IMG/VR virus record: IMGVR_UViG_3300029305_001816
Location: 1 to 64,000 of that record
From: an uncultured virus (IMG/VR IMGVR_UViG_3300029305_001816)
Taxonomy: Duplodnaviria > Heunggongvirae > Uroviricota > Caudoviricetes
Reading direction: 5' to 3' (one strand)
Length of the DNA: 64,000 nucleotides
Under the pieces are notes generated by a model. The model searched no databases and was not told the DNA's origin. It worked only from the letters and a program-made list of their open reading frames with translations. This document shows, piece after piece, positions 4,039-63,523 of this stretch. Every line of letters starts with the position of its first letter. Position 1 is the stretch's first letter. Both the position numbers and the translations under genes were made by a program.

Positions 4039-4057
4039 TATAATAATTAAAGTTATA
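4039..4057 (+). promoter_or_regulatory. TATAAC-N7-GTTATA element (1 mismatch)
   Basis: tataat-aattaaa-gttata, just upstream of a terminator. Confidence 0.6.
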
Positions 4058-4065
4058 AAAAATAT

Positions 4066-4097
4066 GAGTAGGGGTTTAAATCCCCTACTCTATTTTT
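4066..4097 (+). terminator. Intrinsic terminator after the major tail gene
   Basis: gagtagggg-tttaaat-cccctactc followed by tattttt. Confidence 0.8.
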
Positions 4098-4112
4098 GTT
4101 TGGAGGTAAACA

Positions 4113-4502
4113 ATGGCGGCAAAAAATAATGCTACTTGCAGTATCTGTGGAAGACCGTATCATATGTGTGCTTCTTGTAAAGATTCAATGCAAGTGAATC
4201 CTTGGAAGATGTTTACCGATACATCCGAACATTACAAAGTGTTTCAGGTTGTTAAAGGTTTCAATACTGGTGTATATACCAAGGATGAGGCTAAAATTAA
4301 ATTCAAAAATATTGACTTGAGTGATAAGGATTCTTTTCGACCACATATCAAACAAATTATTGATGATATTTTGTTTGAGCCTGTTGTCGAAAAGGTTGTT
4401 ACTCCTAAAAAGAGAAATAAAGTTAATAAAATTGAAGCAGAAGCAATCGACGATGTTAAAATTAACGAGATTGAAGTTGTCGAAGTTGTTGAAGCAGAGT
4501 AA
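4113..4502 (+). CDS. Cys-cluster hypothetical protein
   Basis: 129 aa, CSICG...HMCASC, RBS GGAGG. Confidence 0.7.
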   Translation: MAAKNNATCSICGRPYHMCASCKDSMQVNPWKMFTDTSEHYKVFQVVKGFNTGVYTKDEAKIKFKNIDLSDKDSFRPHIKQIIDDILFEPVVEKVVTPKKRNKVNKIEAEAIDDVKINEIEVVEVVEAE

Positions 4503-4524
4503 TCTGTTTTTTAAGTGTGTAAAT

Positions 4525-4647
4525 AAATATTAGTTTAGATAAATGTAAAAAGGAGTATTATTTCACACTTTTATAATTGTTATAGATAATTAGTTTAAGT
4601 TGGAAGTTAGTACTCCTTTTTTTTTACGCTTATCTAAGCTAATATTT
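4525..4647 (+). other. Long imperfect intergenic RNA hairpin
   Basis: aaatattagtttagataaatgtaaaaaggagtatta pairs with tagtactcctttttttttacgcttatctaagctaatattt using several G-U pairs. Confidence 0.6.
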
Positions 4648-4694
4648 GGAGTGCAAAAATGAATTGAAAGGTTAAATTTGAAGGTGAAAAGAAA

Positions 4695-4925
4695 ATGAAG
4701 ACTATAAGTGATGTAACTGGCATTGAATATGAAATGGAAGATGTAGTCCATTTCCGAAATTTATATCAATCAAGTTTTTATATTGGTCACAATGCGAAGA
4801 TTGTAGATGTGTTTACTGATAGTAAAGGAAAGTTAGTATTTGTCTTTTATCGCAATCAACATGAAGAGCTGATTAAGTTGTGGCTTGCTAATAAGAAAGA
4901 AGATAGTGAAACAAATAAAAACTAA
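4695..4925 (+). CDS. Small hypothetical protein
   Basis: 76-aa ORF with RBS AAGGTG. Confidence 0.7.
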   Translation: MKTISDVTGIEYEMEDVVHFRNLYQSSFYIGHNAKIVDVFTDSKGKLVFVFYRNQHEELIKLWLANKKEDSETNKN

Positions 4926-4945
4926 ATTTTAAATGGTGAAAATGA

Positions 4946-5482
4946 ATGACAAAGAAAGCAACCATCAACTATGGCAAGCGATTTGAAGAAGATTGGTCTT
5001 CCTCTCTTCCCTCTTATTGTTATGTTCACCGTCTTAGAGATTCTGCGCAATCTTATAATAACAGTAGTAAAACCCAGTTTTCATGGGATAATGAATGTGA
5101 TTTCTTTGTGTTAGACTCTCATACTCATTTATTCTATGCTATCGAGTGCAAGAGCACGAAATATAAAAGCATTTCAGTAGAATTAAGTAAAGATGAAAAA
5201 TCTAGTAAGATGATTAAATATCATCAAATTGAATCACTTAAAAAGATATCTGAATATGACGGTACTGTTGTAGGATTGATGCTTAATTTTCGTGGTGAAG
5301 ATAATGACAATCAGAGATTGTATTTTATAGATATAAAAAATTTTTGTAATATGATGAAACAGATTGATAAGTCTAGTTTTAATGAGCTAGACTTATTGAC
5401 TGTTGGTAGAGCTGTTAGAATACAAGGCGAGAAAAAACGTACTAGGTGGAAATGGAATCTTGAAGATTTTCTAAAGTCTTAA
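4946..5482 (+). CDS. recU: RecU-like Holliday junction resolvase (PD-(D/E)xK nuclease)
   Basis: GKRFEE, CDF, AIECKST and IKYHQIESL motifs match the RecU family. Confidence 0.75.
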   Translation: MTKKATINYGKRFEEDWSSSLPSYCYVHRLRDSAQSYNNSSKTQFSWDNECDFFVLDSHTHLFYAIECKSTKYKSISVELSKDEKSSKMIKYHQIESLKKISEYDGTVVGLMLNFRGEDNDNQRLYFIDIKNFCNMMKQIDKSSFNELDLLTVGRAVRIQGEKKRTRWKWNLEDFLKS

Positions 5483-5534
5483 TCTGCTCTTCCTCTCCCC
5501 TCCCTCAAATGAATGAAAAGAAAGGTGAAAATAC

Positions 5535-6143
5535 ATGGAAAATAAAAAGAACGTAATGACTGGTATGTATACACATAAAACTGACGACAATGAAGTTTCT
5601 CATAATTTCAATTTTTATACAAATCTCTCTACCGCTTCTAAATTGAGATTTGTTAATAATGTTACAAAACTTTTGGTAGATACTGATAAAAAGAGATATG
5701 ATTCTGTGTTAAGAAATTTGGTATTTGATTTTTTTATTGTTGAAGGGTTTACTTCTGTTAATGTAGATGAAATTATCAAGTCCAACTTTTTTGTTAATGA
5801 TGCTGAAAAATTCTTAGAGGAAACAAACATTGTGGATATTGTTAAGGCAAATATCGAAAATGGTGTGATTGAAGAGTTGAATCGTGCAGTAGATTTGAAT
5901 ATTCAATATATTACTGGCATCCATCCTAATCCTTTGAATGAAGCTCTGGCAAGACTGATTAATACTTTTGAAAAGAAAGTTAATGAAGTTGATTTGAGCA
6001 ATATGTCTGCAATGTTAGAAGCTTTTAATAATATGTCTGGCGAGTTTACTCCTGAGAATGTTGTGAAGGCATATATGAATACTGATTTTGCTAAGAAGAA
6101 TATGGCTGAGGTTATGGAGGCTAAAAATAAAAAGCAAGAATAA
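5535..6143 (+). CDS. Hypothetical protein, possible tail assembly chaperone
   Basis: 202-aa helical ORF between the major tail and tape measure genes. Confidence 0.5.
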   Translation: MENKKNVMTGMYTHKTDDNEVSHNFNFYTNLSTASKLRFVNNVTKLLVDTDKKRYDSVLRNLVFDFFIVEGFTSVNVDEIIKSNFFVNDAEKFLEETNIVDIVKANIENGVIEELNRAVDLNIQYITGIHPNPLNEALARLINTFEKKVNEVDLSNMSAMLEAFNNMSGEFTPENVVKAYMNTDFAKKNMAEVMEAKNKKQE

Positions 6144-6145
6144 GA

Positions 6146-6164
6146 TATAACTGATAGAGTTATA
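6146..6164 (+). promoter_or_regulatory. TATAAC-N7-GTTATA element (perfect arms)
   Basis: tataac-tgataga-gttata, just after the stop codon at 6143. Confidence 0.65.
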
Positions 6165-6175
6165 GGTGATTAAAA

Positions 6176-6601
6176 ATGAGAATAGAAAATATAGAGAAAA
6201 AACTATTGGCGGCATGTTTGGGCGCTATGGATGAAGTTGAGTATAAAGTACATAATGAGTTTTCTAAAAATTTAGATAATTTTTATGGAAGTTATACGCC
6301 AGCAGAATATATAAGAACTGGTGCTCTTCGTGGTTCATTGAATACCACTGGCGTAAAATCAACTGGAAATGGCGCTGAAGCGGAAGTGTATTTTACTACA
6401 CCTAGTTATCAAACTGGCTGGGTTCCGTTACAAAGTGGTGATTACGGATGGGCTGAATGGAGTGGTCAGAAGGTTCTTGATAACGCTATGGATGGTAGTC
6501 ATGGCGGTTGGGCACATTCTGCACCTATATGGTCAACAAGCATGAATAATCTTGGAGATTTAAAGGCATTATTGTTGGCTGAAGCAAAGTTTCGTCTTTA
6601 A
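6176..6601 (+). CDS. Putative minor tail/neck protein (HK97 gp10-like)
   Basis: YTPAEYIRTGALRGS motif resembles the R(T)GxL signature of this family. Confidence 0.5.
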   Translation: MRIENIEKKLLAACLGAMDEVEYKVHNEFSKNLDNFYGSYTPAEYIRTGALRGSLNTTGVKSTGNGAEAEVYFTTPSYQTGWVPLQSGDYGWAEWSGQKVLDNAMDGSHGGWAHSAPIWSTSMNNLGDLKALLLAEAKFRL

Positions 6602-6648
6602 TAGATGGCAATATGTTTATTTTATTTATTTAGGAAGGAGGATGATTT

Positions 6649-7683
6649 ATGGCAAAAAGTAGAAAAACATTTAGAAAAGTTATAACCTCAGAGTATTTGA
6701 CGGCTCAAATTAATAAAGAAAACATTCGGCTTATGGAGAGATTCTTAAAAAATTTTGCCACAAAACGCTCTCCTAAATCGGTTGTTGTATATAGAAGCAA
6801 TTTGACGATTTTTTTTACATGGAATTTGCTTGAAAATTCTAATAAACCATTTGCTAAAATTCGCAAGCTCGAAATGCTTGATTTCTTCGATTACGCTTTA
6901 AGTGAATTGAAATGGTCTCCAAACCGTTTCCACCAGTGTCATAGTTCGCTATCTAGTTTTTCAGATTGGGTTGAAAATTATTATGATGAAGTCGAGGGAT
7001 ATGAAAATTTCAGAAATATAGTTAAGAAAATTGAAAAGCCGTCAAAAGAAGCGGTTAGAGAAAAAACTGTTTTGAAAGAAGAGGACATTGACAAGATATT
7101 TGTAGTTCTTGAAGAAGAAAACAGAGTTCAAGAGCAATGTTTATTAGCTCTAGCCATCTCTTGTGGCGCAAGAGTTTCTGAATTGGCTCAGTTTACCACT
7201 TCCCTAATTGATGAGGATAATACTGTTTTTGAAGGATTGTTTTTGGAAACCACTGAAAAGATTCGCACGAAAGGTTCTGGAACTCAGGGAAAGATGCTTA
7301 AGAAATATATTTTAAAAGATATGTTTTTGCCATATTATCATAAGTGGTTAAAAGAAAGGGAAGAAATTATTAAAGAAACTGGTCAAGACCATGATTCTCT
7401 ATTTATTACGAGAGATGGAAATCCAGCAACCGCAGATAGACTAAGAGATTGGATTGGTACTTGGGGCGACATTGTTAATCAACCATCGTACCCTCATATG
7501 TATCGCCACTATCAAATAAGTTTGTTAAAGAGATTGGAAATTGACGATGATTTGATTGTGTATCTTACTGGTTGGGCAGAGGGCACTGGTCATACAATGA
7601 TTTCAATTTACAACGACAATGATTTAACTGAGACGCAGTTTGCGTGTCTTAGCAATCTAAAAGATTTTTTAAAAAATAAATAA
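6649..7683 (+). CDS. Tyrosine recombinase (integrase family) inside the tail module
   Basis: Catalytic set present: GAR(R), RTKG(K), PHMYRH (H-x-x-R), LTGW, ISIY(Y); N-terminal SAM-like domain. Confidence 0.9.
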   Translation: MAKSRKTFRKVITSEYLTAQINKENIRLMERFLKNFATKRSPKSVVVYRSNLTIFFTWNLLENSNKPFAKIRKLEMLDFFDYALSELKWSPNRFHQCHSSLSSFSDWVENYYDEVEGYENFRNIVKKIEKPSKEAVREKTVLKEEDIDKIFVVLEEENRVQEQCLLALAISCGARVSELAQFTTSLIDEDNTVFEGLFLETTEKIRTKGSGTQGKMLKKYILKDMFLPYYHKWLKEREEIIKETGQDHDSLFITRDGNPATADRLRDWIGTWGDIVNQPSYPHMYRHYQISLLKRLEIDDDLIVYLTGWAEGTGHTMISIYNDNDLTETQFACLSNLKDFLKNK

Positions 7684-7707
7684 TTTAAAAGGTTAATTTT
7701 AATACCT

Positions 7708-7726
7708 TATAACAAATAAAGTTATA
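7708..7726 (+). promoter_or_regulatory. TATAAC-N7-GTTATA element (perfect arms)
   Basis: tataac-aaataaa-gttata, 4 nt before a terminator stem. Confidence 0.65.
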
Positions 7727-7730
7727 CAAA

Positions 7731-7770
7731 GATAGGATTGGAGGATAACTACCTCCCTCCTGTCTTTTTT
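7731..7770 (+). terminator. Intrinsic terminator after the tyrosine recombinase
   Basis: gatagga..gagg / cctc..tcctgtc followed by tttttt. Confidence 0.65.
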
Positions 7771-10800: not shown

Positions 10801-11270
10801 AGGTCAAACTAATTGACTCTGCTATGACGGAACTTAAAAAAGTTACTAATGAGTCTGATGCGGCTTATAACCAGTTCTTAAGCAATGCTGCATCAAGGTC
10901 TAAAGAGATTGGTACTACTATTGACGGTCTTGTAAATTCTACTGCTGATTTTGCAAGGCTTGGCTATGATTTTGTTGATTCTCAAGGACTTGCTGAAGTA
11001 GCAAATATTTATGCAGTTGTTGGCGATGAAGTTGAGGGCGTTGAAGGCGCTACAGAGAGCTTAATTTCTACAATGGCTGCATTTAAGGGCGAAATGGATG
11101 GCATGAGCAACAGCGATTTCGCCATGAATATAATTGACAAATTTAATGAGATAGGTAACAACTTTGCTATCTCATCGGGCGGCATTGGTGAAGCATTAGA
11201 GAGAAGTGCTTCTTCTATGTATGCTGCAAATAATACTTTGGATGAAAGTATTGCCTTAATCACGGCAGCT
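7848..11270 (+). CDS. Tape measure protein, exon 1 (1141 aa)
   Basis: Coiled-coil protein ending in the TP901-type TMP core (IDSAMTELKKVT...ADFARLGY...DESIALITAA), broken by the intron. Confidence 0.9.
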
Positions 11271-11706
11271 ATGTAAAATTGGCTGTTCATATAGCAATAT
11301 ATGATTTGAATACATTTAATTGCTGGGAACTTCTTAGAGCTTTACACCACAATAACGGAGAAATCACGTTATGAAGGTTTGACAACGTAAAGATTGGATA
11401 ATCAGCAGCGAAGTACCCTAACGTATTCCGTAGACCATACGGTGTTTAGTCGAGGGTAAACGTTCAACGACCATTCCCAAGTCGGGGTTTAGAAATACCA
11501 ACAATGTTGGTTATAAAATAAAGGTGGAAATCCTGAATATCTAAACCATTAGAAGTAGGGCGCAATTGCAAAGGTGCAGGTGAGAATCCTTTAAATCGAA
11601 ATAGTGTACTCCTTATTTTTCGAGGATGAAGATATGGTCTTTTCAATATAGAAATATGTTGGTGTGTTTTATGATAAAAATATATTTGTAAATAGTCAGA
11701 AAATTC

Positions 11707-11735
11707 TTGACTTATAACAAATAATGTTATATAAT
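11707..11735 (+). promoter_or_regulatory. SigmaA-type promoter inside the intron, overlapped by a TATAAC-N7-GTTATA element (11713-11731)
   Basis: TTGACT-17 nt-TATAAT; spacer and -10 overlap tataac-aaataat-gttata. Confidence 0.8.
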
Positions 11736-11769
11736 ATAAATAAAATTATATAACTTGTAGGTGAAAACA

Positions 11770-11937
11770 ATGAAAAGATACGATAAAGAATATTCTACGC
11801 AACATACGCCAGAAAAAGAGTATTTGTTGCAAAATGGAATTAAGCCATCATTTGTAAAAATTATTGATGGTATTACAACTTATAAATATACAAAGACGGC
11901 GACATTATTTAAATTGTTGTCTGTTTTTTATGATTGA
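11770..11937 (+). CDS. 55-aa intron-encoded small protein (not in ORF track)
   Basis: MKRYDKEYSTQHTPEKEYLLQNGIKPSFVKIIDGITTYKYTKTATLFKLLSVFYD*, RBS AGGTG, downstream of the internal promoter. Confidence 0.7.
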   Translation: MKRYDKEYSTQHTPEKEYLLQNGIKPSFVKIIDGITTYKYTKTATLFKLLSVFYD

Positions 11938-11965
11938 AATAAAATGATAATATACGGGTGATAAT

Positions 11966-13120
11966 ATGGCTAAGAAAATTCATATATGTGTAAATTGTGG
12001 AGAAAAATTTGAAAGTTATGCAGATAATACAAAATTTTGCAGTAGAAAATGTTATGAAGAAAATAGACAATCAAATAGAAAAACGAAAAGGGTTGTTTGT
12101 CCTATTTGCAATGAAGAATTTCTTCAGATTCGTCCAGAACAAATATTTTGTAGTAATAAATGCAAGGTCAAATCAAGAGAAGATAAAATAAAGTGTGTTT
12201 GTGAGCATTGCGGTGTTTCATTTGAAAGAAAACGAAGTGAAGTTGATAAAAATCAAAGACATTATTGCTCTAACGAATGTAAGATAAATGGGATGTTTTG
12301 GAGCGAAGAAGATACGAATATTTTAATTTCTAATTACAAGAAATTGTCTTATAGAGAAATGAGTGAAAATGATATTTTTTCTGTTCATAAAACGATTGAT
12401 GAAATTAAAAGAAGAGCTATTTATATTGGCATTACTTCTTCAAGAGATTGGTCTGATGAAGAGATTGACGTATTAAAGAATAATTATTCGAAAGTTTCTA
12501 TGAATGAAATATTAAATATGCTGCCAAACAGAACAAGACCGTCTATATTGGGCAAGGCCCGCAGTTATGAGCTAAAGAGCAAATTTTATCTTACTCATAT
12601 GTATTCAAATGAAGAAAATGAATACATAAAAAATAATTATTTGCTTAAATCGAACGAAGAGATGGGAAAAGAATTAAATAGAAGTGTTCAAGGTATTGCC
12701 GAACATTTGTTAGTTCTTGATTTGCATAGACCAACTGAAATAGATAATTATAAAACACTGAAAAAGTATGTTAGATGTAGATTGACTACTTGGAGAGATA
12801 ATATAAGAGAATTAAATAATTATACTTGTCAGTTGACTGGCATAAGAACGAATATTGTAGTTCATCATATTCGTAGTTTTAATTTACTTTTTCTTGAAAC
12901 AATTAAGGCATTAAACTTCCCAATTTACGATGATATATCTAATTATAATCAAGAACAATTGGATGAATTTCTAAATATGTTTTTAGAGATTCAGGAAAAC
13001 TATAATAGTTATATTTGCATTAATGAAGATATACATAAAAGGTTTCATAAGGAATATGGCTATGGAGATAACACAGAAGAACAATGGGATGAATTTATAA
13101 ATAAATATTATAAGAAATAA
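11966..13120 (+). CDS. Intron-encoded HNH homing endonuclease with CxxC..F/YCS..C zinc repeats and Myb-like repeats
   Basis: Three CxxC-x-F-x-[FY]CSxxC units, three W/YS(E/D/N)EE/D helical repeats, C-terminal YTCQLTG..VHHI..CINEDIHKRFHKEYG. Confidence 0.85.
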   Translation: MAKKIHICVNCGEKFESYADNTKFCSRKCYEENRQSNRKTKRVVCPICNEEFLQIRPEQIFCSNKCKVKSREDKIKCVCEHCGVSFERKRSEVDKNQRHYCSNECKINGMFWSEEDTNILISNYKKLSYREMSENDIFSVHKTIDEIKRRAIYIGITSSRDWSDEEIDVLKNNYSKVSMNEILNMLPNRTRPSILGKARSYELKSKFYLTHMYSNEENEYIKNNYLLKSNEEMGKELNRSVQGIAEHLLVLDLHRPTEIDNYKTLKKYVRCRLTTWRDNIRELNNYTCQLTGIRTNIVVHHIRSFNLLFLETIKALNFPIYDDISNYNQEQLDEFLNMFLEIQENYNSYICINEDIHKRFHKEYGYGDNTEEQWDEFINKYYKK

Positions 13121-13127
13121 AGTTATA
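13109..13127 (+). promoter_or_regulatory. TATAAC-N7-GTTATA element (1 mismatch) at the 3' end of the intron cargo
   Basis: tataag-aaataaa-gttata overlapping the HNH stop codon. Confidence 0.6.
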
Positions 13128-13169
13128 ATACACACAACAAGAAGTTGCGATTCTTGTTAAAAACAAAAG

Positions 13170-22741: not shown

Positions 22742-23863
22742 ATGTTTAAGACTTATAAATATAGAATTTTTCCAAACAAGCAACAAGAAGAGCTAATACA
22801 AAAAACATTTGGTTGTTGCAGATTTGTTTATAATCAAACTCTCGCTTACAAAAAACAATTATACGAAACAGAAAAGAAATTTGTTAGTAAATTTGATTGT
22901 AACAATTATAAAAATAGCGTCCTTAAAAAACAATATGAATGGTTGAAGGAAGTAGATAAATTTGCATTAGAAAATTCTATATATAATATGGATTCTGCTT
23001 TCCAGAATTTTTTTAAAGGACGTGCTAGTTTTCCAAGATTTAAAAGTAAAAAAACAAATAAGAAATCATATAAAACTAATTTTACTAATAATACTGCTGG
23101 TGGAAATATCAGGGTAGATTTTGATGACGATAAAATATTATTGCCAAAACTTAGTTGGGTTAAAATCAAAATAAGTAGACGGTTTAATGGCAAAATTAAA
23201 TCTGCTACTATATCGCAAGTTCCAAGCGGCAAATATTATGTGTCTATTCTTGTTAAAACAGAACATATTCCTGCTGAATCTACTGGCCGTGTGATTGGTA
23301 TAGATTTGGGCATTAAAGATTTACTTATTACCTCTGATGGGGACAAATTTGAAAATATTCGTACTACTAAAAAATATGAAGAAAAGTTAGCAAAAGAACA
23401 AAGAAAACTTTCTCATAAACAAAAAGGTAGTAAGAATTATGAAAAACAAAGAATTAAAGTAGCAAGAATATATGAGAAAATACATAACACTAGAATTGAT
23501 TATTTGCATAAAATCTCTCATAAATTAATTAACGAAAACCAAGTTATAGTTTCTGAAGATTTAGCGATAAGCAATATGGTTAAAAATCATAATCTTGCAA
23601 AATCAATTCTTGATTGTGGTTGGTATGAATTAACACGACAGTTGCAATACAAATCTGAATGGAATAATCGTCAATATGTAAAGATTGGGCGATTTACGAA
23701 ATCCAGTCAACCTTGCAATATTTGTGGCTATATCAATGCTGAAACAAAGAATCTGGCTGTAAGAGAATGGATTTGCCCTAATTGTGGAGCTGTTCATGAT
23801 AGGGATATAAATGCTGCCATTAATATTTTAAACGAAGGATTAAGGTTACTTAGTATATCTTAA
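22742..23863 (+). CDS. tnpB: IS200/IS605-family RNA-guided endonuclease TnpB
   Basis: N-terminal HTH ([23 protein letters not shown]), RuvC-I GIDLGIK, RuvC-II VSEDL, Zn finger CNIC/CPNC, RuvC-III DRDINAA. Confidence 0.95.
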
Positions 23864-25118: not shown

Positions 25119-28100
25119 ATGGCTATAGATATCAAATTTGATTTGATTGGCAATCCAGAACCGCCCACTATAATACTAGCTAATAGAAACGGTAATAAAC
25201 TTGGACAATTAAAAGTTAATACTGAAAGCATCGAATTGACCGATAAATTTAATGATGTCTCTGAATTTAGTTTTACAATAAATAAATATATAGACAATGA
25301 ACCAACACATTTATGGGATAAAGTTATTGATTTTAAACTTGTATATTGCAAAGAATGGGATATGTGGTTTGAAATTAAAGTTGAACTAGATGAAGCTACT
25401 GAAACTGTCAAAACAATATTTTGTACTCAGTTAGGTCAGGCGGAACTTTCTCAAATCATGCTTTACAATATTGAGATTAATACAGAGGATGATATCGCTA
25501 GAGACGATTACAAGGTTAGTGTTCTATATAATGTAGATGATACTGAAGCATCTATATTACATAGGATTTTAAAAGATAAAGCGCCCCACTATTCTATTGC
25601 AGATGTTTCACCTACTATAGCTAAGATACAAAGAAGCTTCTCTTTTGACGGCATCTCTATATATGATGCGTTTCAAGAAATTGGTGAAGAAGTGGGATGT
25701 TTATTTATTTTTCATTCTAATTCAGATGAAAATGGGAAAATTCAAAGAACTATATCCGTATATGATTTACAACAATATTGTAATGATTGTGGTTATAGGG
25801 GAGAATTTACAGATAAGTGTCCTAAATGCAATAGTACAAGCATAACGAATGGTTATGGCGAAGATACGTTGATTTTTGTCACTTCTGATGAATTGGCTTC
25901 TGGCGGCATCCAATTAGTTACTGACGTTGATTCGGTTAAGAGTTGTTTTAAGTTAGAAGCTGGCGATGATTTGATGACATCGACAGTCCGCAATTGTAAT
26001 CCAAACGGAACTGATTATATATGGTACTTTTCGGACGACATTAAAGAAGATATGTCTGATGAATTAGTCGAAAAACTAGAATCTTATGATAAAAATTATC
26101 GGTATTACAGCAACGAATATATTGTAAATATAGACCAAGAATTATTAGATAGTTACAATGCGCTTGTTAATAAATATAAAGAATATAATTATGATTTGAA
26201 TTATATTTTTCCTCCAATTAAGGGTTATTCATCTTTAATGAATGCGTATTATGATACTGTAGATTTGGCTTTGTTTTTAAAATCCTCTCTGATGCCTACT
26301 TACGATGAATATACTAGTGCCGAAGATATCTATTTGATTGATGAATTAGATAACTTTCTAACAGACGAGTCAGACAATCTATTGACATATAGAAGAGGAA
26401 TTAGAGAAAAGACAAATGCCGAGGAACAAGCAAGTCTATTAACGGTCTCTGCCCTCTCCCCTGTTTCTGTATCTAATATAAGTATTGCTTCGGCAGCAAC
26501 AATTGACAGTACCGTTTTATCTGTGGCAAAGATTGTTGTTAAATCAACATACAAAGTAGAAGTAAATGCGTCTAATATAGTTGATAATGGTGATACAAAA
26601 ATATGGACTGGCAGTTTTATAGTTACAAGCTATGTTGACGAAGAAGATAGAGCTATAAGCAAAACTGTATCTGTTGTAGTAAATGATAATTATGAAAACT
26701 TTGTTAAGCAAAAAATAGAAAAAGCACTAAGCAAAGGAAATACAGAAGATTTAAGTATCACTGGCTTATTCTCAAAGGGAATTTATAGTTTTAGAAGTGA
26801 TTTGAAGCATTATTCATTAAATTCTCTTCTGAGTTTTCGTGATGCTTGTCAAGCATGTATTGACATTTTAATAGAACAAGGTATTGGCAGTGATACTAAT
26901 AGCGATTTGTATAAAAATTTATACAGCCCTTATCTTGAAAAGCTGCAAGCTATTGAAGCAGAGATAAAAGTCAGAGAAGATGAAATAAACTCTATAACAG
27001 GAGCTTATGATTCAGATGGCAATTTAATTTCCAAAGGTATACAAAATTATATTGACAAATATAGAACTGAAATACAAAAGATACTTAACTTCGAAGAATA
27101 TTTGGGTGAAGAATTGTGGTTAGAATTTTGCTCTTATCGCAGAGAAGATAAGTATTCGAATGAAAATTATATCTCAAATGGACTAGATAATGCAGAGCTA
27201 TTTAAAAAGGCGCTAGAGTTCTTCGAGGTTGCAGAGAATGAAATTTATAAATCATCTGAATTACAACATTCTATTTCAACTACTTTAAATAATTTATTAG
27301 CGATTCCGAAGTTTGAACCGCTGGTCAAAATGTTTAAGGTTGGCAATTGGATTAGGGTTCAAATTGATAATAAGATATATAAATTAAGATTGCTTGAGTA
27401 TGGAATTGATTATAGCAAGTTTGATAGTATTCCCGTTGAATTTTCAGATGTAACCAAAGTTAAAAATGGAGTTACTGATGTTGAAAGTATTTTGTCTCAG
27501 GCGGCTAATATGGCTACCTCTTATAGCACTGTTAAGAGACAGGCAAGTCAAGGAGAGAAAAGTAATGCCACCTTAAATGACATAATCGAAAGTGGATTAA
27601 ATGTAGAAGACACTAAAATTATTGGAACAGTTAACCAGAATCAAACATGGGATAAAAACGGAATTTTATGTCGTGAATATGACCCTATTACTGAAACATA
27701 TAGCGATGAGCAATTAAAAATTATTAACTCTACTATTGCTATTACAGATGATAGTTGGGACACGACAAAGACTGCTATTGGAAAATATTACTATACAGAC
27801 CCTACAACTAAGGAACTAAAAAGTGTTTACGGTGTTAATGGTGAAACAATAGTGGGCAGATTGCTTATCGGTGAACAGCTTAACATTACCAATGATAAAA
27901 ATAGTCTGCAATTTACTGATGACGGACTTGTTATTAAAAATGATGTAAATACTATATCTATAAATCCAAACAATGAATCTTTGTTTAATATAACTAGTGA
28001 TAATGGTAATATATTCCATTTAAATGATGAGGGAGAATTAGCAATCACTGGAAATATCACTGCTAAAAGTTTGACCTTATTGGGCAATACAACTATTGGT

Positions 28101-28652
28101 TCTAATGAGATTGAGGGATTACATGACGTAGCTATTACTGGTTCTTATTATGATTTGGAAAATTTGCCAGAGTTATCCCCCGTTGCTATTAGCGGCTCTT
28201 ACAAAGATTTGGTCGATTTTCCAAAATTTGCTCTTGTTGCTACCAGTGGTTCTTATTATGACTTGATGAATAAGCCAACAAAATTAAGTGATTTTGAAGA
28301 TGATGGTGTATTTGATAGTGTTTTAGAAAATTATTATAATACATCTCAGGTCGATAATTTATTAGATTCAAAAGTTGATAAAACTAGTTTAGCTTCTGTT
28401 GCAACATCTGGTTCTTATAATGATTTAAAGAATTTACCAGAATTAGCATCTGTGGCTCTCACTGGCAAATATACAAGTTTATCTGATACGCCGACTATTC
28501 CAGAAAAATTAAGCGAATTAGAAAATGATAGTGCGTTTGTGACAAATAGCGTAGACAACTTAACAAATTATTATAGTAAAGCTGAAGTTGACGCTAAAAT
28601 AGAAGAATTGAAAAGTTGGGTATTGAGTCAAATACAAGGAACGGCAACTTAA
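25119..28652 (+). CDS. Tail-associated (Tal/baseplate hub-spike) protein
   Basis: 1177 aa after Dit. FKVGNWIRV..RLLEY OB-like motif, CNDC/CPKC zinc site, C-terminal VA(T/I)SGSYxDL fibre repeats. Confidence 0.75.
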   Translation: MAIDIKFDLIGNPEPPTIILANRNGNKLGQLKVNTESIELTDKFNDVSEFSFTINKYIDNEPTHLWDKVIDFKLVYCKEWDMWFEIKVELDEATETVKTIFCTQLGQAELSQIMLYNIEINTEDDIARDDYKVSVLYNVDDTEASILHRILKDKAPHYSIADVSPTIAKIQRSFSFDGISIYDAFQEIGEEVGCLFIFHSNSDENGKIQRTISVYDLQQYCNDCGYRGEFTDKCPKCNSTSITNGYGEDTLIFVTSDELASGGIQLVTDVDSVKSCFKLEAGDDLMTSTVRNCNPNGTDYIWYFSDDIKEDMSDELVEKLESYDKNYRYYSNEYIVNIDQELLDSYNALVNKYKEYNYDLNYIFPPIKGYSSLMNAYYDTVDLALFLKSSLMPTYDEYTSAEDIYLIDELDNFLTDESDNLLTYRRGIREKTNAEEQASLLTVSALSPVSVSNISIASAATIDSTVLSVAKIVVKSTYKVEVNASNIVDNGDTKIWTGSFIVTSYVDEEDRAISKTVSVVVNDNYENFVKQKIEKALSKGNTEDLSITGLFSKGIYSFRSDLKHYSLNSLLSFRDACQACIDILIEQGIGSDTNSDLYKNLYSPYLEKLQAIEAEIKVREDEINSITGAYDSDGNLISKGIQNYIDKYRTEIQKILNFEEYLGEELWLEFCSYRREDKYSNENYISNGLDNAELFKKALEFFEVAENEIYKSSELQHSISTTLNNLLAIPKFEPLVKMFKVGNWIRVQIDNKIYKLRLLEYGIDYSKFDSIPVEFSDVTKVKNGVTDVESILSQAANMATSYSTVKRQASQGEKSNATLNDIIESGLNVEDTKIIGTVNQNQTWDKNGILCREYDPITETYSDEQLKIINSTIAITDDSWDTTKTAIGKYYYTDPTTKELKSVYGVNGETIVGRLLIGEQLNITNDKNSLQFTDDGLVIKNDVNTISINPNNESLFNITSDNGNIFHLNDEGELAITGNITAKSLTLLGNTTIGSNEIEGLHDVAITGSYYDLENLPELSPVAISGSYKDLVDFPKFALVATSGSYYDLMNKPTKLSDFEDDGVFDSVLENYYNTSQVDNLLDSKVDKTSLASVATSGSYNDLKNLPELASVALTGKYTSLSDTPTIPEKLSELENDSAFVTNSVDNLTNYYSKAEVDAKIEELKSWVLSQIQGTAT

Positions 28653-28654: not shown

Positions 28655-28673
28655 AATAACTAATAAAGTTATA
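28655..28673 (+). promoter_or_regulatory. TATAAC-N7-GTTATA element (1 mismatch)
   Basis: aataac-taataaa-gttata, right after the Tal stop codon. Confidence 0.6.
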
Positions 28674-47349: not shown

Positions 47350-47391
47350 TAATAAATTATTTACAATTTCTTAATAAATAAAGTTATATAA

Positions 47392-47420
47392 AAGGGAGAG
47401 GGTGACCTCTCCCTTAATTT
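47392..47420 (+). terminator. Hairpin after the fibre gene, preceded by a half TATAAC-N7-GTTATA element (47370-47388)
   Basis: aagggagagg-gtga-cctctccctt; weak U tract. Confidence 0.6.
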
Positions 47421-51870: not shown

Positions 51871-51904
51871 TTTATATTTTTTTAATTATTAAAGTTATAC
51901 AAAT

Positions 51905-51937
51905 AATGGCGGTAGTTGTATTTAACTACCGCCATTT
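51905..51937 (+). terminator. Hairpin terminator preceded by a half element (51881-51899)
   Basis: aatggcggtagtt-gtattt-aactaccgccatt. Confidence 0.7.
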
Positions 51938-54601: not shown

Positions 54602-54645
54602 TATTTGTAAAATAGATTGATAACTAATAAATTAATAAAGTTATA

Positions 54646-54677
54646 AGGGTGGCATATTTAATGCCACCCTGTTTTTT
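54646..54677 (+). terminator. Intrinsic terminator abutting a half element (54627-54645)
   Basis: agggtggcat-attta-atgccaccct followed by gtttttt. Confidence 0.8.
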
Positions 54678-58445: not shown

Positions 58446-58462
58446 AATTAAGATAAAATTTT

Positions 58463-58497
58463 AGGAAACATGATAATATTCATGTTTCCTTTTTTTT
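58463..58497 (+). terminator. Terminator ending the late region
   Basis: aggaaacatg-ataatatt-catgtttcct followed by ttttttt. Confidence 0.85.
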
Positions 58498-58624
58498 ACG
58501 ATTTTTCATTTTGTTTATTTATGTTTTTCTCACCATATTTTCTTGCAAAGTATTCAGCTAGTCTATTTATATTTATTTTTTTATTTTCTATAACTTTAAT
58601 TGTTATTTCTCTTTCTTTTCGCAT
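58496..58624 (-). CDS. 42-aa basic protein divergent from the serine integrase (candidate RDF)
   Basis: Minus-strand RBS AAGGAGAAGGA; MRKEREITIKVIENKKININRLAEYFARKYGEKNINKQNEKS*. Confidence 0.6.
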   Translation of the reverse strand: MRKEREITIKVIENKKININRLAEYFARKYGEKNINKQNEKS

Positions 58625-58779
58625 AGTCCTTCTCCTTATCCTCTCTTTATTTTATATAACCTTATTGGTTATGTATTTAAGTAAATATCAGACATTGATT
58701 AACTTTTGTCGGATATTTACTTAAGTGTGTATTTGTGAATGTATGCATATTTATTATATTAAAATAATAATTTTATATT

Positions 58780-58904: not shown

Positions 58905-58923
58905 TATAACTAAGAAAGTTATA
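58905..58923 (+). promoter_or_regulatory. TATAAC-N7-GTTATA element (perfect arms) upstream of the integrase
   Basis: tataac-taagaaa-gttata; inverted near-copies at 58589-58607 and 58655-58673. Confidence 0.65.
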
Positions 58924-58956: not shown

Positions 58957-60597
58957 ATGGCAAGTATGACGAGAACAATAGAACGAGATAGGCGAAGAAA
59001 AGTTGCAGTTGCTTACGCTCGGTTCTCTTCCAACAATCAACGTGAAGAAAGTATTGACGCTCAATTAAGGGCAATCCGTGAGTATTGTGAAAAAGAGAAT
59101 ATCGAGTTAATAGCAGAGTTTACAGATGAAGCTCAAAGTGGTAAAACGGATAACCGTGAAGACTTCCAAAACATGATTAACAAATTGCTTAAAGGTCATA
59201 TCCAAGCTGATTATGTTTTGGTTCATAAGTTTAATCGTTTTGCTAGAAACAAATTTGACAGTGCTTTATATAAGAAGAAACTAAGAGATATAGATGTTAA
59301 GGTTGTTTCTGTATCTCAAAAGATTGATGATACCCCAGAGGGCGAATTGCTTGAAGGTTTTCTTGAAACTATTGACCAATATTATAGTGCTAACCTTGCT
59401 GCTGAGGTAAGGAAAGGTCTTAGAGAAAACGCATTAAAAGGTAAACACGCTGGTGGTCAAGTGTTGTTCGGGTACTCTCTTGACAAAGATGGCTATTATG
59501 TTCCAAATGAAAATGCTAAGATTGTTAAACGCATTTTTGAAGAATATGTAGCTGGATATCCTAAAACAGAAATCTGCGAAAGACTTAATAAAGAAGGTTA
59601 TCGCAATCAGCGTGGCAAGCTGTTTAATACTCGCACACTATATGACCTTTTAAGAAATGAAAAGTATATTGGCAACTATGTGTATACAATAGACAAGAAA
59701 GAAACAGTTCGACTTGATGGGATTATCAAAGACCACCCTATCGACATGAAGCTTTGGAATGAAGCACAGGAATTGTGTAAAAACGCAAGTGAAAAAGCGC
59801 AAGCTAGACAAAGAACACAAAAGCGTTTTTACCATCTAACTGGAAAAGCTTATTGTAAAGAATGTGGTAGCAAGATTTGTGCTAATGGTTCTAAACGTTC
59901 AAATGGCAATGGCAAGTTAAATTACTATTACCAATGCGTGGGAAAAGTAAAGCACAAGAATGGATGTAAAAATCCTGCGCTCAATAAAGACTGGGTAGAG
60001 CCAAAAGTTTTAAAGACAATTATGAATGTTGTTATGAATGAAGAAATGGTCAAACAGATTGCTCAGGTTGCTTTTGAAGAAATTATTGCGATGAGAGATG
60101 CACCTGTTGTGACTACTGCTCAACTTAAAAAAGAGCTTGCTCAAATCGATAAGAAACAAGAGAGATTAAGAGATTTGTATATCGACGGAAATATGAGCAA
60201 AGAAATACTTGATGAAAAAAACGGTGAGTTGGCAAGACGAAGATATCAAATCGAAGATGAGTTAGAAAAGAGAAAAAATATCTTTGAAGCTGAGGATATT
60301 TCACCAGAAGACATTGAAAAATTCATCATCCAATATGTCGAAGATATTCAAGAAGAATATGACCAATCAGATGATGAATTTAAGAGAATCATGATTAGTA
60401 CTTTTGTAGAAAGGATTGATGTGAGCAGAGAGAAAGTAACTGTTCATGTCCATACTCCATTTGGTCGTATGGACAGAAATTTTTTTGAAGACAGAGGTGA
60501 TAAGCCGTGTTATACGGGAGTGATACACCGCTTATCAACCGTCAAAGTAGAGCGGTCTTTCCCTCGCAAAAAGAATATTCACGGCAGATTAGACTAA
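58957..60597 (+). CDS. Large serine recombinase (phage integrase)
   Basis: YARFSS catalytic Ser, KFNRFARN, recombinase domain (LRNEKYIG), zinc ribbon CKECG...YYQC...C, coiled coil. Confidence 0.95.
   Translation: MASMTRTIERDRRRKVAVAYARFSSNNQREESIDAQLRAIREYCEKENIELIAEFTDEAQSGKTDNREDFQNMINKLLKGHIQADYVLVHKFNRFARNKFDSALYKKKLRDIDVKVVSVSQKIDDTPEGELLEGFLETIDQYYSANLAAEVRKGLRENALKGKHAGGQVLFGYSLDKDGYYVPNENAKIVKRIFEEYVAGYPKTEICERLNKEGYRNQRGKLFNTRTLYDLLRNEKYIGNYVYTIDKKETVRLDGIIKDHPIDMKLWNEAQELCKNASEKAQARQRTQKRFYHLTGKAYCKECGSKICANGSKRSNGNGKLNYYYQCVGKVKHKNGCKNPALNKDWVEPKVLKTIMNVVMNEEMVKQIAQVAFEEIIAMRDAPVVTTAQLKKELAQIDKKQERLRDLYIDGNMSKEILDEKNGELARRRYQIEDELEKRKNIFEAEDISPEDIEKFIIQYVEDIQEEYDQSDDEFKRIMISTFVERIDVSREKVTVHVHTPFGRMDRNFFEDRGDKPCYTGVIHRLSTVKVERSFPRKKNIHGRLD
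60498..60537. other. Candidate attP site within the integrase 3' end
   Basis: Imperfect 18-bp inverted arms tgataagccgtgttatac / gtgatacaccgcttatca around a central ggga. Confidence 0.5.
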
Positions 60598-60728: not shown

Positions 60729-60962
60729 ATGAAGAGCGAAAAAGAATTATTTGACCTTGCTAAAAGATATGCGCATTTAGAAGACCAGTTTCAAATAGCA
60801 GCCATAGAATTTGAGATAGAAGAAATCAAAGAAGCAATGGAAGAAATATTGAATACTCTTTTAGAGAAAAGATATGACCCTGATAAATTTGTAGCCTATA
60901 AAAAGATGTACAAAGAAATGACTATCGGAGAATATTTTGAATTTATAAAAACACTTGAATAG
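60729..60962 (+). CDS. Hypothetical protein
   Basis: 77 aa, RBS AGGTG. Confidence 0.7.
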   Translation: MKSEKELFDLAKRYAHLEDQFQIAAIEFEIEEIKEAMEEILNTLLEKRYDPDKFVAYKKMYKEMTIGEYFEFIKTLE

Positions 60963-61353: not shown

Positions 61354-61361
61354 AAAGGTAA

Positions 61362-61390
61362 TTGACCTTAAATTGTTATGCTAGTATAAT
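61362..61390 (+). promoter_or_regulatory. SigmaA-type promoter
   Basis: TTGACC-17 nt-TATAAT. Confidence 0.75.
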
Positions 61391-61395
61391 AAAAA

Positions 61396-61464
61396 CACCC
61401 TTTTAAGTGCCTTTGGTATGGATATAGTTTTAGCCCTGTAGAACATTCTACAGGGCTATTTTTT
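61396..61464 (+). ncRNA. Candidate ~70-nt small RNA
   Basis: Lies between the promoter above and the terminator tagccctgtagaa-ca-ttctacagggcta-tttttt; no complete ORF. Confidence 0.55.
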
Positions 61465-61535
61465 ACTATGACACTGGATGTACGAGCAGCCATGATGTCT
61501 AGTACTAGCTTATCCAGCGATTTAAATTTTATACA

Positions 61536-61799
61536 TTAATCTACTGTCATTGTAAGCGCATTAAGATTTGCTCCGAAATGATACTTAATAAATTCACCGA
61601 TTTCATCGATAGCAACATTTTCATTCGCAATCTGTTCGGCGTAATCAACAAACTTTAGACCATAGATTCCATAACATCTTGCCTTGTCAGCCATTGCAAT
61701 AGGGTTCTTACAAACGACAGTCATATTGTTTTCTTTGGCTGCTACAAGCATTTTTCTTGTTTTGCCAGTACTATTTTTGTCAACAATGTATCCATTCAT
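61536..61799 (-). CDS. Small degenerate P-loop-like protein
   Basis: NSTGKT and VAIDE motifs in 87 aa; RBS GAGG. Confidence 0.6.
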   Translation of the reverse strand: MNGYIVDKNSTGKTRKMLVAAKENNMTVVCKNPIAMADKARCYGIYGLKFVDYAEQIANENVAIDEIGEFIKYHFGANLNALTMTVD

Positions 61800-61897
61800 T
61801 TTCTTACCTCTTTATTAATTAGTCATTTAATGTATATATTTATATGCATTAAGCGTAATTTTGTATATAATAATATACATTATAACTTTATTACTTG

Positions 61898-62170
61898 TTA
61901 ATCACATAAGTTCTCTTCAAGTTCTTTTATCCTTCTGTCAATATACCATCTGGCTTTTTTGAGGTCATTAATTGCCTTTTCTTTATCGCTTTTATCAGCA
62001 GAATGTTTTTTGCCAGCTCTTGACACATACTTAATTACATTTCCGAGACAAAATCCCAAATTTTTATCCTCTATGTAATCTATTACTTCTATATTTGTGT
62101 CAGTATAGTGCTTAGGATTTTGAACATCGTCGTAAGTCGAATAAACTTTTTCAATAGCAATATCGCCCAT
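61898..62170 (-). CDS. DUF3310-like protein
   Basis: VQNPKHY..IEVIDYI..FCLGNVIKYVSRAGKK..DLKKARWY. Confidence 0.85.
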   Translation of the reverse strand: MGDIAIEKVYSTYDDVQNPKHYTDTNIEVIDYIEDKNLGFCLGNVIKYVSRAGKKHSADKSDKEKAINDLKKARWYIDRRIKELEENLCD

Positions 62171-62182
62171 ATTTACACATCC

Positions 62183-62380
62183 TTACAGTACATATAATCT
62201 AATGCATCCAGATTCTAGTTCAATCATTGTAACGTCTAATTCTTTCATCTCATAAGGAAAGTTAAAATAAAAATTACCATAAAGTTCTTGGTTAGAACAG
62301 GCGCTAGTCAAAATTGTATACTTAGAATCGCCATCTTTAATATGAGACATTAGTTCTTTGACTGTTGTTAGAGTAGCCAT
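62183..62380 (-). CDS. Hypothetical protein
   Basis: 65 aa, coupled to neighbouring genes. Confidence 0.6.
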   Translation of the reverse strand: MATLTTVKELMSHIKDGDSKYTILTSACSNQELYGNFYFNFPYEMKELDVTMIELESGCIRLYVL

Positions 62381-62949
62381 TAGATACTCTCCTCTCCCAG
62401 AACCAATTCCTTAAAGTAAGGCAGTTGTTCAATCTGAGTGCAGAATTCACGCCATTCAGGAAGTCTGTGTGTTCTCCTCTGATAGTAAATTGTCTTAAGC
62501 TGTCTATAATTAGTTGTCATGGCGGCAGTCAGTTTGAAACCACAAGGATTGGAATAAAGTAGTCTAAGATAATCTTCTTTATCTTTTGTTTCATTGTACT
62601 TATCCTTAAGCTCGTTCATTATCTCAATCATTCGTGGGTCAACATATTCGATATACTGATTACTTAAATCAAACTGACTAATTCTATGCATTGTAGACTG
62701 ACTAGAAATGAAATCAAAGAAGTGATATCTTTCAGCTTCTGTCCATGCCTTTACTGTAAAAGTTAAATCGAATTGAACAATGATACCCGTAAGAAATTGG
62801 TCGTGAGCTGCACCAACAGGACTATTACCAAGCTTCTTTGTAGTCTTTGTAATTTCTGAATTCAGTGAAGTCACATCTGTAGCCATGGGAAATTTGCTTC
62901 CTCTGATTGCGTTCTCAAGTCCATAAACATGAATATTTTCAATTACCAT
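62380..62949 (-). CDS. Divergent ThyX-like (flavin-dependent thymidylate synthase fold) protein
   Basis: H.QFL, EAERYH, SQSTMH and NYRQL..IY.QR..H..PEW motifs resemble phage ThyX-like proteins. Confidence 0.5.
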   Translation of the reverse strand: MVIENIHVYGLENAIRGSKFPMATDVTSLNSEITKTTKKLGNSPVGAAHDQFLTGIIVQFDLTFTVKAWTEAERYHFFDFISSQSTMHRISQFDLSNQYIEYVDPRMIEIMNELKDKYNETKDKEDYLRLLYSNPCGFKLTAAMTTNYRQLKTIYYQRRTHRLPEWREFCTQIEQLPYFKELVLGEESI

Positions 62950-62970
62950 TTTACTCGTCTCCTTTAATGT

Positions 62971-63012
62971 TGGGGAACTTTATTGTCTTATTCAATGTAA
63001 TAAAGTTCCCCA
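62971..63012 (-). terminator. Intergenic hairpin in the minus-strand operon, abutting a half element (63013-63031)
   Basis: tggggaactttattg ... taataaagttcccca. Confidence 0.55.
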
Positions 63013-63019
63013 TATAACC

Positions 63020-63523
63020 TTAATAATCTATCGCTTCAAAAGGGATAAATGTAGAATAATAATTATTACTAACAATTACTTCATACTGTTCATCGCACTG
63101 TTCATCGCATTCATATCTATTAACTCCGACATATAAGTTGCCACATTCAGTTTCCCAATGATATTCATTTTTGTTCTTTCTAAAATATTCAATACCACGT
63201 TTAATATCATTTTTTATTTCTTCATTATTGCATCTATCAACAGCGCCGTTTTCCTTGCAAGTATGCCAGAAATGAGTAGGAAATTCTACGTTGTCGGCAG
63301 TTAAAGCAACACTATTCTCATTATCGTCAAGATAGTTAACGCATCCGCATAAAGGACAGGTAATGGTTGCGCAGCCAAAAGCGCCCACTTCTAAGTCAGA
63401 CTTTTCGTATTCAATTTCTGAATCGCATCCATCACAAATAAGAATACGAGGATAGGGTTTTACATTCTTGACTTCTTTAACCACTTCTTCCTCATAATTA
63501 TAATTATTCTTTAAAACTTTCAT
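63020..63523 (-). CDS. Zinc-ribbon hypothetical protein
   Basis: CDGC...CPLC. Confidence 0.75.
   Translation of the reverse strand: MKVLKNNYNYEEEVVKEVKNVKPYPRILICDGCDSEIEYEKSDLEVGAFGCATITCPLCGCVNYLDDNENSVALTADNVEFPTHFWHTCKENGAVDRCNNEEIKNDIKRGIEYFRKNKNEYHWETECGNLYVGVNRYECDEQCDEQYEVIVSNNYYSTFIPFEAIDY

What the first reader, a model, noticed from the sequence alone, without database searches (positions are those of the whole stretch)
4039..63031. Dispersed, transcription-oriented 19-bp element TATAAC-N7-GTTATA at gene ends, terminators and promoters (stoperator-like network)
Seen: perfect arms at 6146, 7708, 11713, 58905; one mismatch at 4039, 13109, 28655, 58589, 58655; half sites with the same spacer at 47370, 51881, 54627, 55490, 61881 and 63013. 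The spacer is asymmetric (about wAATAAA) and flips with transcription direction: 58589, 58655, 61881 and 63013 are inverted and lie in minus-strand units. Nearly all copies are intergenic or overlap stop codons. Six lie 0-10 nt upstream of stem-loops (4066, 7731, 47392, 51905, 54646, 62971). One fills the -35/-10 spacer of a promoter, and three cluster at the integrase/divergent-ORF region. A rough hand estimate gives well under one perfect 12-base match by chance in 64 kb. Known analogues are the oriented repressor 'stoperators' of cluster A mycobacteriophages, nut-like antitermination sites, and tyrosine-recombinase core sites (inverted arms around an asymmetric 6-8 bp spacer). Inference: one phage protein acts at all these sites, either as an elongation roadblock/repressor or as a recombinase.
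Basis: partly seen in the sequence, partly recalled or inferred. Interest (0 to 1): 0.85.

Follow-up and report, generated by a model that had tools for sequence, protein, structure and literature searches.

The report
One-way repressor boxes, SPbeta-like gut phage
A 19-letter DNA word repeated along this large gut phage, pointing the way the genes are read, is most likely the docking site of the phage's integrase-shaped master repressor, a switch known from Bacillus phages SPbeta and phi3T, but here it also sits among the late genes and just before transcription stop signals.

Summary
The element is real: 9 copies with at most 1 mismatch against 0.33 expected. It is an asymmetric box, nnwAAYwrwTAARGTTATA, not a palindrome. 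Relatives carry 21-36 copies, and 125 of 127 intergenic copies point with transcription. The window is the late arm of an SPbeta-like phage. The best candidate binder lies outside this contig: a 317-aa homologue of the integrase-fold repressor SroF/MrpR. It is followed by an SOS-like box in 6 of 7 relatives and by a small gene whose product is modelled to bind it. The window's 6649-7683 recombinase is not needed: a complete relative without it has 33 copies. Published SPbeta and phi3T boxes are also co-oriented. New here: copies in the late arm and just before hairpins (34 of 105 gene-end copies against 56 of 637 controls; 0 of 40 in SPbeta and phi3T). Binding and any roadblock effect are untested. 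One repressor-less relative keeps 8 variant copies, so a second recombinase stays a minor rival. The scan found SPBRE-type arrays before on other DNA.

The parts
4039..4057 (+). box, 20 nt after stop of 3206-4018, before hairpin at about 4066-4090
   Evidence: same position kept in 3 of 9 relatives with the orthologue
6146..6164 (+). box between stop of 5535-6143 and ribosome-binding site of 6176-6601
   Evidence: position not kept in 8 of 8 relatives
6649..7683 (+). YomM-like tyrosine recombinase with an intact active site (R175, K208, H283, R286, W309, Y321); not required for the box
7685..7702 (.). second, unrelated palindrome WTAAAA-N6-TTTTAW (motif B) directly after the recombinase stop
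7708..7726 (+). box before hairpin 7728-7767
   Evidence: position kept in 4 of 7 relatives
11271..13169 (+). group I intron in the tape-measure gene, carrying two boxes
   Evidence: Rfam RF00028 at 11261-11661, 62.5 bits; removal restores the frame seen in G002
11713..11731 (+). box filling the spacer of a sigma-A promoter (TTGACT 11707-11712, TATAAT 11730-11735) upstream of the intron ORF
   Evidence: same register as 4 of 13 SPBRE copies
11966..13120 (+). intron-encoded ORF with a weak HNH match (probable homing endonuclease)
13109..13127 (+). box overlapping the stop codon of the intron ORF
28655..28673 (+). box 2 nt after stop of 25119-28652
47370..47388 (+). box before terminator-like hairpin 47392-47415
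51881..51899 (+). box before hairpin 51905-51936
54627..54645 (+). box abutting terminator-like hairpin 54646-54670
58496..58624 (-). 42-aa ORF divergent from the integrase; similar small ORFs with an upstream box occur in G002 and G007
58589..58607 (-). box inside the 42-aa minus-strand ORF
58655..58673 (-). box 30 nt upstream of the 42-aa ORF
58905..58923 (+). box 33 nt upstream of the serine integrase
   Evidence: kept in 4 of 4 relatives
58957..60597 (+). large serine integrase (SprA-like)
61881..61899 (-). box overlapping stop of 61898-62170 and a sigma-A-like promoter
63013..63031 (-). weak box before hairpin 62971-63012

Best explanation
The 19-mer is the operator of the phage's SroF/MrpR-type master repressor, a catalytically dead tyrosine-recombinase-fold protein that binds an asymmetric A-tract box as a monomer. 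In the lysogen it occupies some 25-35 boxes per genome. Boxes in promoter spacers and 5' leaders block initiation, including at the integrase, the divergent small ORF and the intron ORF. Boxes at gene ends and before terminators probably damp read-through into lytic genes. On DNA damage, LexA releases the small gene behind the repressor, whose product binds the repressor and frees all boxes. Shown here: the motif, its polarity and placement, the repressor homology, and co-occurrence. Inferred: DNA binding, repression, the antirepressor role, any elongation block, and that this phage's own repressor gene lies in the unassembled part.
For: The genome plan is SPbeta-like. The motif is confined to phage DNA: 22 of 28 matches in the 2.7-Mb genome G007 lie on its 160-kb phage contig. 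The family profile of P0002 hits only SroF and YopR/MrpR in the PDB (4 hits, E about 1e-16), and the top 7 fold matches are these proteins. The catalytic R and HxxR are absent. The motif is in 5 of 5 phages with a 64-100% homologue and 0 of 8 with distant ones. Motif-first test: 3 of 4 motif-rich records (the fourth 60% complete) and 0 of 11 motif-poor records have a close homologue. G823 has a diverged repressor (branch 1.46, its Rec257 branch 0.33), no copy of the motif, and its own oriented box (12 copies, 10 of 11 co-oriented). An SOS-like box lies between the repressor gene and a conserved 117-124-aa gene in 6 of 7 relatives. The modelled complex of the two proteins scores 0.84 against a best control of 0.00; 116 of 157 solved and 2 of 215 mismatched pairs reach the mark; runs agree in at least 89% of contacts; partner pLDDT is at least 78; a like complex (SroF-Sar) is solved, so the pass may be from likeness. 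Known boxes share the layout: SPBRE 12 of 12 and phi3T 23 of 24 co-oriented, in promoter spacers, before ribosome-binding sites and at stops.
Against: No binding data exist. The repressor gene is not in G000 or in the two records identical to it in their overlaps. G821, a complete record with no detectable SroF-like gene, keeps 8 variant copies against 15 in its 90%-identical relative G820. Rec257, a catalytic-domain-only tyrosine recombinase, is present in all near-complete motif-rich genomes. Motif similarity to SPBRE is not significant (p = 0.12). Direct comparisons with MrpR failed with the narrow alignment, and the fold TM-scores are only about 0.38. Seven of the 8 negatives are GC-richer (43-54%) and partly short stretches. 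Promoter overlap is only mildly enriched (20 of 133 against 50 of 600, p = 0.02). No strong box lies in the repressor's own promoter.
Confidence: 0.78

Rival explanations
1. The box is bound by Rec257, the catalytic-domain-only tyrosine recombinase of the early region, as a regulator or recombinase.
For: Present at 53-68% identity in all near-complete motif-rich genomes. A box-like sequence lies in the 5' end of its gene in G006 and G007. G821 has it, lacks the SroF-like gene and keeps 8 variant copies.
Against: At the same Rec257 identity (44-50%), 5 of 5 records with a distant or undetected SroF-like gene have 0-2 pattern matches, against 5-9 in 9 of 9 with a 48-51% homologue (several of the latter are close to their reversed-pattern controls). 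G823 has an ordinary Rec257 and no copy.
Confidence: 0.08
2. The box is a promoter or activator site for the phage's YonO-like RNA polymerase or for the neighbouring winged-helix protein.
For: Relatives encode a YonO-like polymerase. The box is polar, ends in TATA and occurs in the late arm.
Against: G007 and G804 carry a polymerase only 23% like that of G002 yet have 36 and 33 copies; G130 has a 45% one and none. G804 has no detectable winged-helix homologue. Eight copies end at or overlap the next start codon and 19 end 10-16 nt before it, too close for a promoter.
Confidence: 0.05
3. The box acts in RNA, as a nut-like antitermination, processing or translational-operator site.
For: Strict co-orientation, overlap with stop codons (30 of 133 at -5 or -12), adjacency to ribosome-binding sites and placement just before hairpins.
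Against: Copies fill -35/-10 spacers and divergent gaps. There is no stable fold and no compensatory pairing at positions 6/14. Proven DNA operators of phi3T show the same polarity and stop-codon overlap.
Confidence: 0.05
4. The box is the crossover site of the window's 6649-7683 (YomM-like) recombinase.
For: The enzyme looks active, the 6-7-6 layout recalls lambda-type cores (recalled), and a copy follows the gene in 4 of 7 relatives.
Against: G804 (complete, direct terminal repeats) has 33 copies and no such gene. The arms are asymmetric, and there are 10 different spacers among 18 copies. Direct repeats would delete essential genes, yet the late genes stay colinear. SPbeta and G005 have the gene and no copy.
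Confidence: 0.02

Closest known systems
SPBRE bound by MrpR (YopR/SroF), master repressor of Bacillus phage SPbeta (PMC10516654)
   Same: SPbeta-like genome; homologous integrase-fold protein in relatives; asymmetric A-rich box ending in TATA; 12 of 12 co-oriented; same promoter register as 11713.
   Different: Different sequence (similarity p = 0.12). 13 copies in SPbeta against 25-36 here. None in SPbeta's late arm or before hairpins. The repressor gene is not in a six-gene sro operon here.
phi3T SroF box with the LexA-controlled antirepressor Sar (10.1101/2025.11.27.690993)
   Same: Monomeric repressor on a long A-tract box; 27 boxes by my scan, 23 of 24 co-oriented, several at stops and ribosome-binding sites; repressor gene, SOS box and small gene in sequence.
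   Different: 0 of 27 boxes before hairpins and none in the late arm. The small gene directly follows the repressor here and matches no named family.
Operator/stoperator system of cluster A mycobacteriophages such as L5 (PMC9283540)
   Same: More than twenty asymmetric sites, oriented with transcription, in promoters and short intergenic gaps; monomeric two-domain repressor.
   Different: Unrelated protein fold (HTH plus Stoperator domain) and 13-bp site. An orientation-dependent elongation block is shown for L5 and not tested here.
Tyrovirus gp50 / SPbeta YomM tail-module recombinase with a putative 11-6-11 site (PMC9703825)
   Same: 6649-7683 is this kind of gene, before the tape measure, and a 6-bp-spacer palindrome follows its stop.
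   Different: That palindrome is motif B, a separate element. The 19-mer does not depend on this gene.

Membership tests
SroF/MrpR operator (SPBRE-type) | SPbeta-like temperate phage | tested here: met
SroF/MrpR operator (SPBRE-type) | Phage encodes an integrase-fold repressor without catalytic residues | tested here: inconclusive
   Met in relatives; the gene is not in G000 or its overlapping records, which leave a gap
SroF/MrpR operator (SPBRE-type) | Asymmetric A-tract box in many dispersed intergenic copies | tested here: met
SroF/MrpR operator (SPBRE-type) | Box changes with the repressor allele | tested here: inconclusive
   Supported; G821 keeps 8 copies without the gene
SroF/MrpR operator (SPBRE-type) | Sequence similarity to SPBRE | tested here: not met
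   p = 0.12; not required, since SPbeta and phi3T boxes also differ
SroF/MrpR operator (SPBRE-type) | SOS-controlled small antirepressor gene behind the repressor | tested here: met
   SOS-like box in 6 of 7 relatives; complex model passes; function not shown
SroF/MrpR operator (SPBRE-type) | Repressor binds the box and represses | not testable with these tools
   needs EMSA, ChIP or reporter
SroF/MrpR operator (SPBRE-type) | Link to an arbitrium (AimR/AimP) system | not tested
   no dedicated search was run
Cluster A stoperator | Many asymmetric sites oriented with transcription in short gaps | tested here: met
   125 of 127 against a null of 76%, p = 7e-13
Cluster A stoperator | HTH plus Stoperator-domain repressor | tested here: not met
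   the candidate has an integrase fold
Cluster A stoperator | Orientation-dependent block of elongation | not testable with these tools
   no RNA data laid
Tyrosine-recombinase core site of 6649-7683 | Two equivalent inverted arms | tested here: not met
Tyrosine-recombinase core site of 6649-7683 | Co-occurrence with the enzyme | tested here: not met
   G804
YonO-type polymerase promoter | Motif follows the polymerase type and lies at promoter distance from genes | tested here: not met

The most novel reading that the evidence does not exclude
The SroF-type repressor of this clade is a polar transcription roadblock: a dead tyrosine recombinase that, clamped on boxes at gene ends and directly before intrinsic terminators of the late operon, stops elongating host polymerase or enforces termination in one direction only. 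That would be a second, independent invention of the stoperator principle, and the near-perfect polarity of the phi3T and SPbeta boxes suggests it may hold for SroF generally.
Probability: 0.3. Interest if true: 0.68.

Novelty: new variant of a known kind. Interest (0 to 1): 0.42.

Why it matters
It assigns a probable master repressor, operator and SOS-controlled antirepressor to a widespread clade of uncultured 130-160-kb gut phages (1,037 repressor homologues; one prophage-sized contig lies in a Lachnospiraceae genome), so immunity groups and induction could be read from sequence. It also raises a question testable now in B. subtilis: whether SroF stops elongation in one direction. The words orientation, roadblock, terminator and elongation do not occur in the MrpR paper's main text, and orientation does not occur in the SroF-DNA preprint. 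Brady et al. 2023 and Lazarevic et al. 1999 (recalled) were not available to check.

Tried and rejected
Direct sequence or profile matches of P0002 to MrpR with the narrow alignment failed; only the 86-row alignment reached it. The first de novo motif script timed out. A faster one found no clear dispersed box in seven distant prophage regions or G005, so allele-specific boxes were shown only for SPbeta, phi3T and G823. Sequencing runs: no RNA holder was listed. Contigs of 4 of 6 runs showed no joint from one box to another among the 15 joints listed (10 more not shown); contigs drop rare variants, so this is not counted as evidence. A class-wide genome search found the repressor family in no new genome of 399 scored. 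Rfam at gathering threshold found nothing in the whole window; the intron appeared only in the local search. The search for this phage's own repressor gene failed: G831 overlaps the contig end but stops about 3.6 kb beyond it. The 53-copy repeat of G821 first looked like a replacement operator but is a clustered non-coding array. A host transcription factor was rejected because the copies cluster on the phage contig. Literature searches for an SroF roadblock or a YomM site found nothing to the point.
Full report
Observation. The excess holds against AT-matched intergenic shuffles: 16 against 0.135. A matrix refined on 114 distinct sites from six phages gives nnwAAYwrwTAARGTTATA. The right ten bases and AA at 4-5 carry the information, and the left arm is perfect in only 21 of 201 sites. 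The element is therefore an asymmetric box with a partly palindromic look. 55490 is not a member, 63013 is weak, and 32855 and 58927 are additional members.

Context. The window is the late arm of an SPbeta-like phage. It holds a YomM-like recombinase before an intron-split tape-measure gene, DUF6558 tail genes, an endolysin, a serine integrase and then the opposite early arm. The contig G000 is 72.7 kb and about 52% complete. G001 is identical over 42,872 bp and extends it upstream; G831 extends it 3.6 kb downstream. Relatives share 66-77% nucleotide identity over parts of G000, and larger records carry 21-36 copies, against 0-3 for the reversed matrix where that control was run. In G007, 22 of 28 matches lie on the phage contig of a 2.7-Mb genome.

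Placement. Across eight records, 125 of 127 intergenic copies between co-directional genes point with transcription, against 76% in strand-preserving shuffles (p = 7e-13). Of 133 intergenic copies, 30 overlap a stop codon at -5 or -12, 20 touch a sigma-A-like promoter (control 50 of 600), and 28 have a strong hairpin just downstream against 7 upstream (control 48 and 49 of 600). After merging orthologous copies the figures are 28 against 6 among 133 clusters. Among gene-end positions, 34 of 105 copies precede a hairpin against 56 of 637 positions without a copy. In G000, 7 of 16 hairpin-bearing gaps have a copy in front. Late-arm copies number 10 of 18 in G000, 8 of 34, 10 of 36, 7 of 26 and 3 of 25 in four relatives.

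The binder. The complete relative G002 encodes a 317-aa protein, P0002, with a weak match to the MrpR core-binding domain. Narrow comparisons with MrpR failed. A broad family profile hits only SroF and YopR/MrpR in the PDB, and the predicted structure retrieves them first, with low TM-scores of about 0.38. The catalytic arginine and HxxR motif are missing. The motif is in 5 of 5 phages with a close homologue and 0 of 8 with distant ones (seven of the negatives are GC-richer partial regions). Chosen motif-first, 3 of 4 motif-rich and 0 of 11 motif-poor records carry a close homologue. In 6 of 7 relatives an SOS-like box and promoter follow the gene and precede a conserved small gene, as described for sroF and sar (10.1101/2025.11.27.690993; parts 1-2 of 8 and passages read). 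A model of the two proteins scores 0.84 against 0.00 for the best control. 116 of 157 solved and 2 of 215 mismatched pairs reach the mark, the runs agree in at least 89% of contacts, and partner pLDDT is at least 78. A like complex is solved, so this supports binding and does not show it.

Excluding other candidates. G804 is complete with terminal repeats and has 33 copies, but no YomM-like gene, no detectable winged-helix homologue, and a polymerase of a different type. G007 also has that other polymerase type (23%), while G130 has a 45% one and no copy. Rec257, a catalytic-domain-only recombinase, remains. Among 14 records with Rec257 at 44-50%, nine with a 48-51% repressor have 5-9 pattern matches (several near their controls) and five without have 0-2. 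G823 has a long-branch repressor, an ordinary Rec257, no copy, and a different oriented box. Against this, G821 lacks the repressor gene yet keeps 8 variant copies where G820 has 15. That fits decay after repressor loss but also fits Rec257.

Comparison with known systems. MrpR binds SPBRE in ten promoter regions (PMC10516654; abstract, passages and Discussion read). My scan finds 13 SPBRE copies, 12 of 12 co-oriented, four in the same promoter register as 11713, none in the late arm and none before a hairpin. For phi3T I find 27 boxes, 23 of 24 co-oriented, several at stops and ribosome-binding sites, none in the late arm and none before a hairpin. Polarity and dispersal are thus ordinary for SroF boxes; late-arm and terminator-proximal placement is what differs here. 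The L5 stoperators (PMC9283540, passages) are the functional analogue with an unrelated protein. The YonO promoter was undetermined in PMC5467207 (passages). PMC9703825 and 10.1101/2021.11.22.469490 were read as passages. No supplements were read, and bioRxiv supplements, which may list phi3T boxes, were closed. Brady 2023 and Lazarevic 1999 are recalled, not seen.

Mechanism. Inferred: repressor monomers clamp the boxes in the lysogen. Promoter-spacer and leader copies block initiation. Gene-end copies would meet an elongating polymerase before the hairpin is made, so box and terminator would be two successive barriers against read-through. An SOS-induced antirepressor clears all boxes at once, and the phage polymerase then transcribes the late arm. 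The two copies around the intron ORF suggest that even an acquired nuclease gene has been placed under this control. Polarity alone does not prove a roadblock, since promoter and leader copies may be polar for other reasons.

A second element. TAAAA-N6-TTTTA (motif B) occurs 11 times in G000 and 44-60 times in five larger relatives, 34 times in SPbeta and 30 in phi3T, against 0-11 for other spacers. It is also in Tsamsa, Perkons, phi36 and RQ1 (23, 17, 27, 10; five-base control 0-2). It is low in G804 (7-8), which lacks YomM, but also low in two partial records that have it (2 each). It cannot be the allele-specific SroF box, since it is shared across phages with different repressors. It is the better candidate site for 6649-7683, unproven.

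Verdict. This is a real, conserved operator array of the SroF/MrpR kind (about 0.78), in a denser variant that reaches into the late arm and terminators. Earlier notes of this scan reached similar readings on other genomes; my reading was stated before I saw them, and they are not counted as support.

Noticed in passing
window 4915, 7685, 27652, 31379, 31403, 37600, 43921, 45837, 58759, 61389: Second palindrome WTAAAA-N6-TTTTAW with a free 6-bp spacer. In relatives it has 44-60 copies, often holding the stop of one small early gene and the ribosome-binding site of the next. It is shared with SPbeta, phi3T, Tsamsa, Perkons, phi36 and RQ1, and is a candidate site of the YomM-like recombinase, with an imperfect correlation.
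   Followed up: partly
window 11271-13169: Group I intron in the tape-measure gene with an ORF (weak HNH match) that has its own sigma-A promoter and boxes at both ends; low-identity contigs join across about this interval.
   Followed up: partly
window 58496-58624 (-): 42-aa basic ORF divergent from the serine integrase, with similar ORFs in G002 and G007; candidate directionality factor or regulator.
   Followed up: partly
G002 94-115 kb; G821 64.6-74.4 kb: Non-coding tracts with about 50-60 clustered copies of an AT-rich word between early promoters; the word differs between phages.
   Followed up: no
G821:C1:86300-87400: Complete record lacking the SroF-like gene and its small neighbour while keeping half of the boxes; possibly a natural repressor-less derivative.
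   Followed up: partly
G007:C55:79290-81938 and G804: A YonO-like polymerase of a different type (23% to that of G002) sits in otherwise close relatives, so this gene has been exchanged.
   Followed up: no
G007:C55 about 63050-63300: Apparent hybrids of the left part of the box and the right part of motif B.
   Followed up: no
window 22742-23863 and 29922-31079: TnpB-like (IS605 OrfB) gene after the tape measure and a GIY-YIG homing endonuclease gene in the lysis region.
   Followed up: no
L001:7555-11442 (beyond the window end): Eleven tRNA genes interleaved with two endonuclease-like ORFs.
   Followed up: no
G023:C175:13236-16400: Two SroF-like genes flank a tyrosine recombinase gene, recalling the SPbeta repressor operon.
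   Followed up: no
window 34900-35200: 21-bp-period repeats inside ORF 33685-35655 give chance near-matches to the motif.
   Followed up: no
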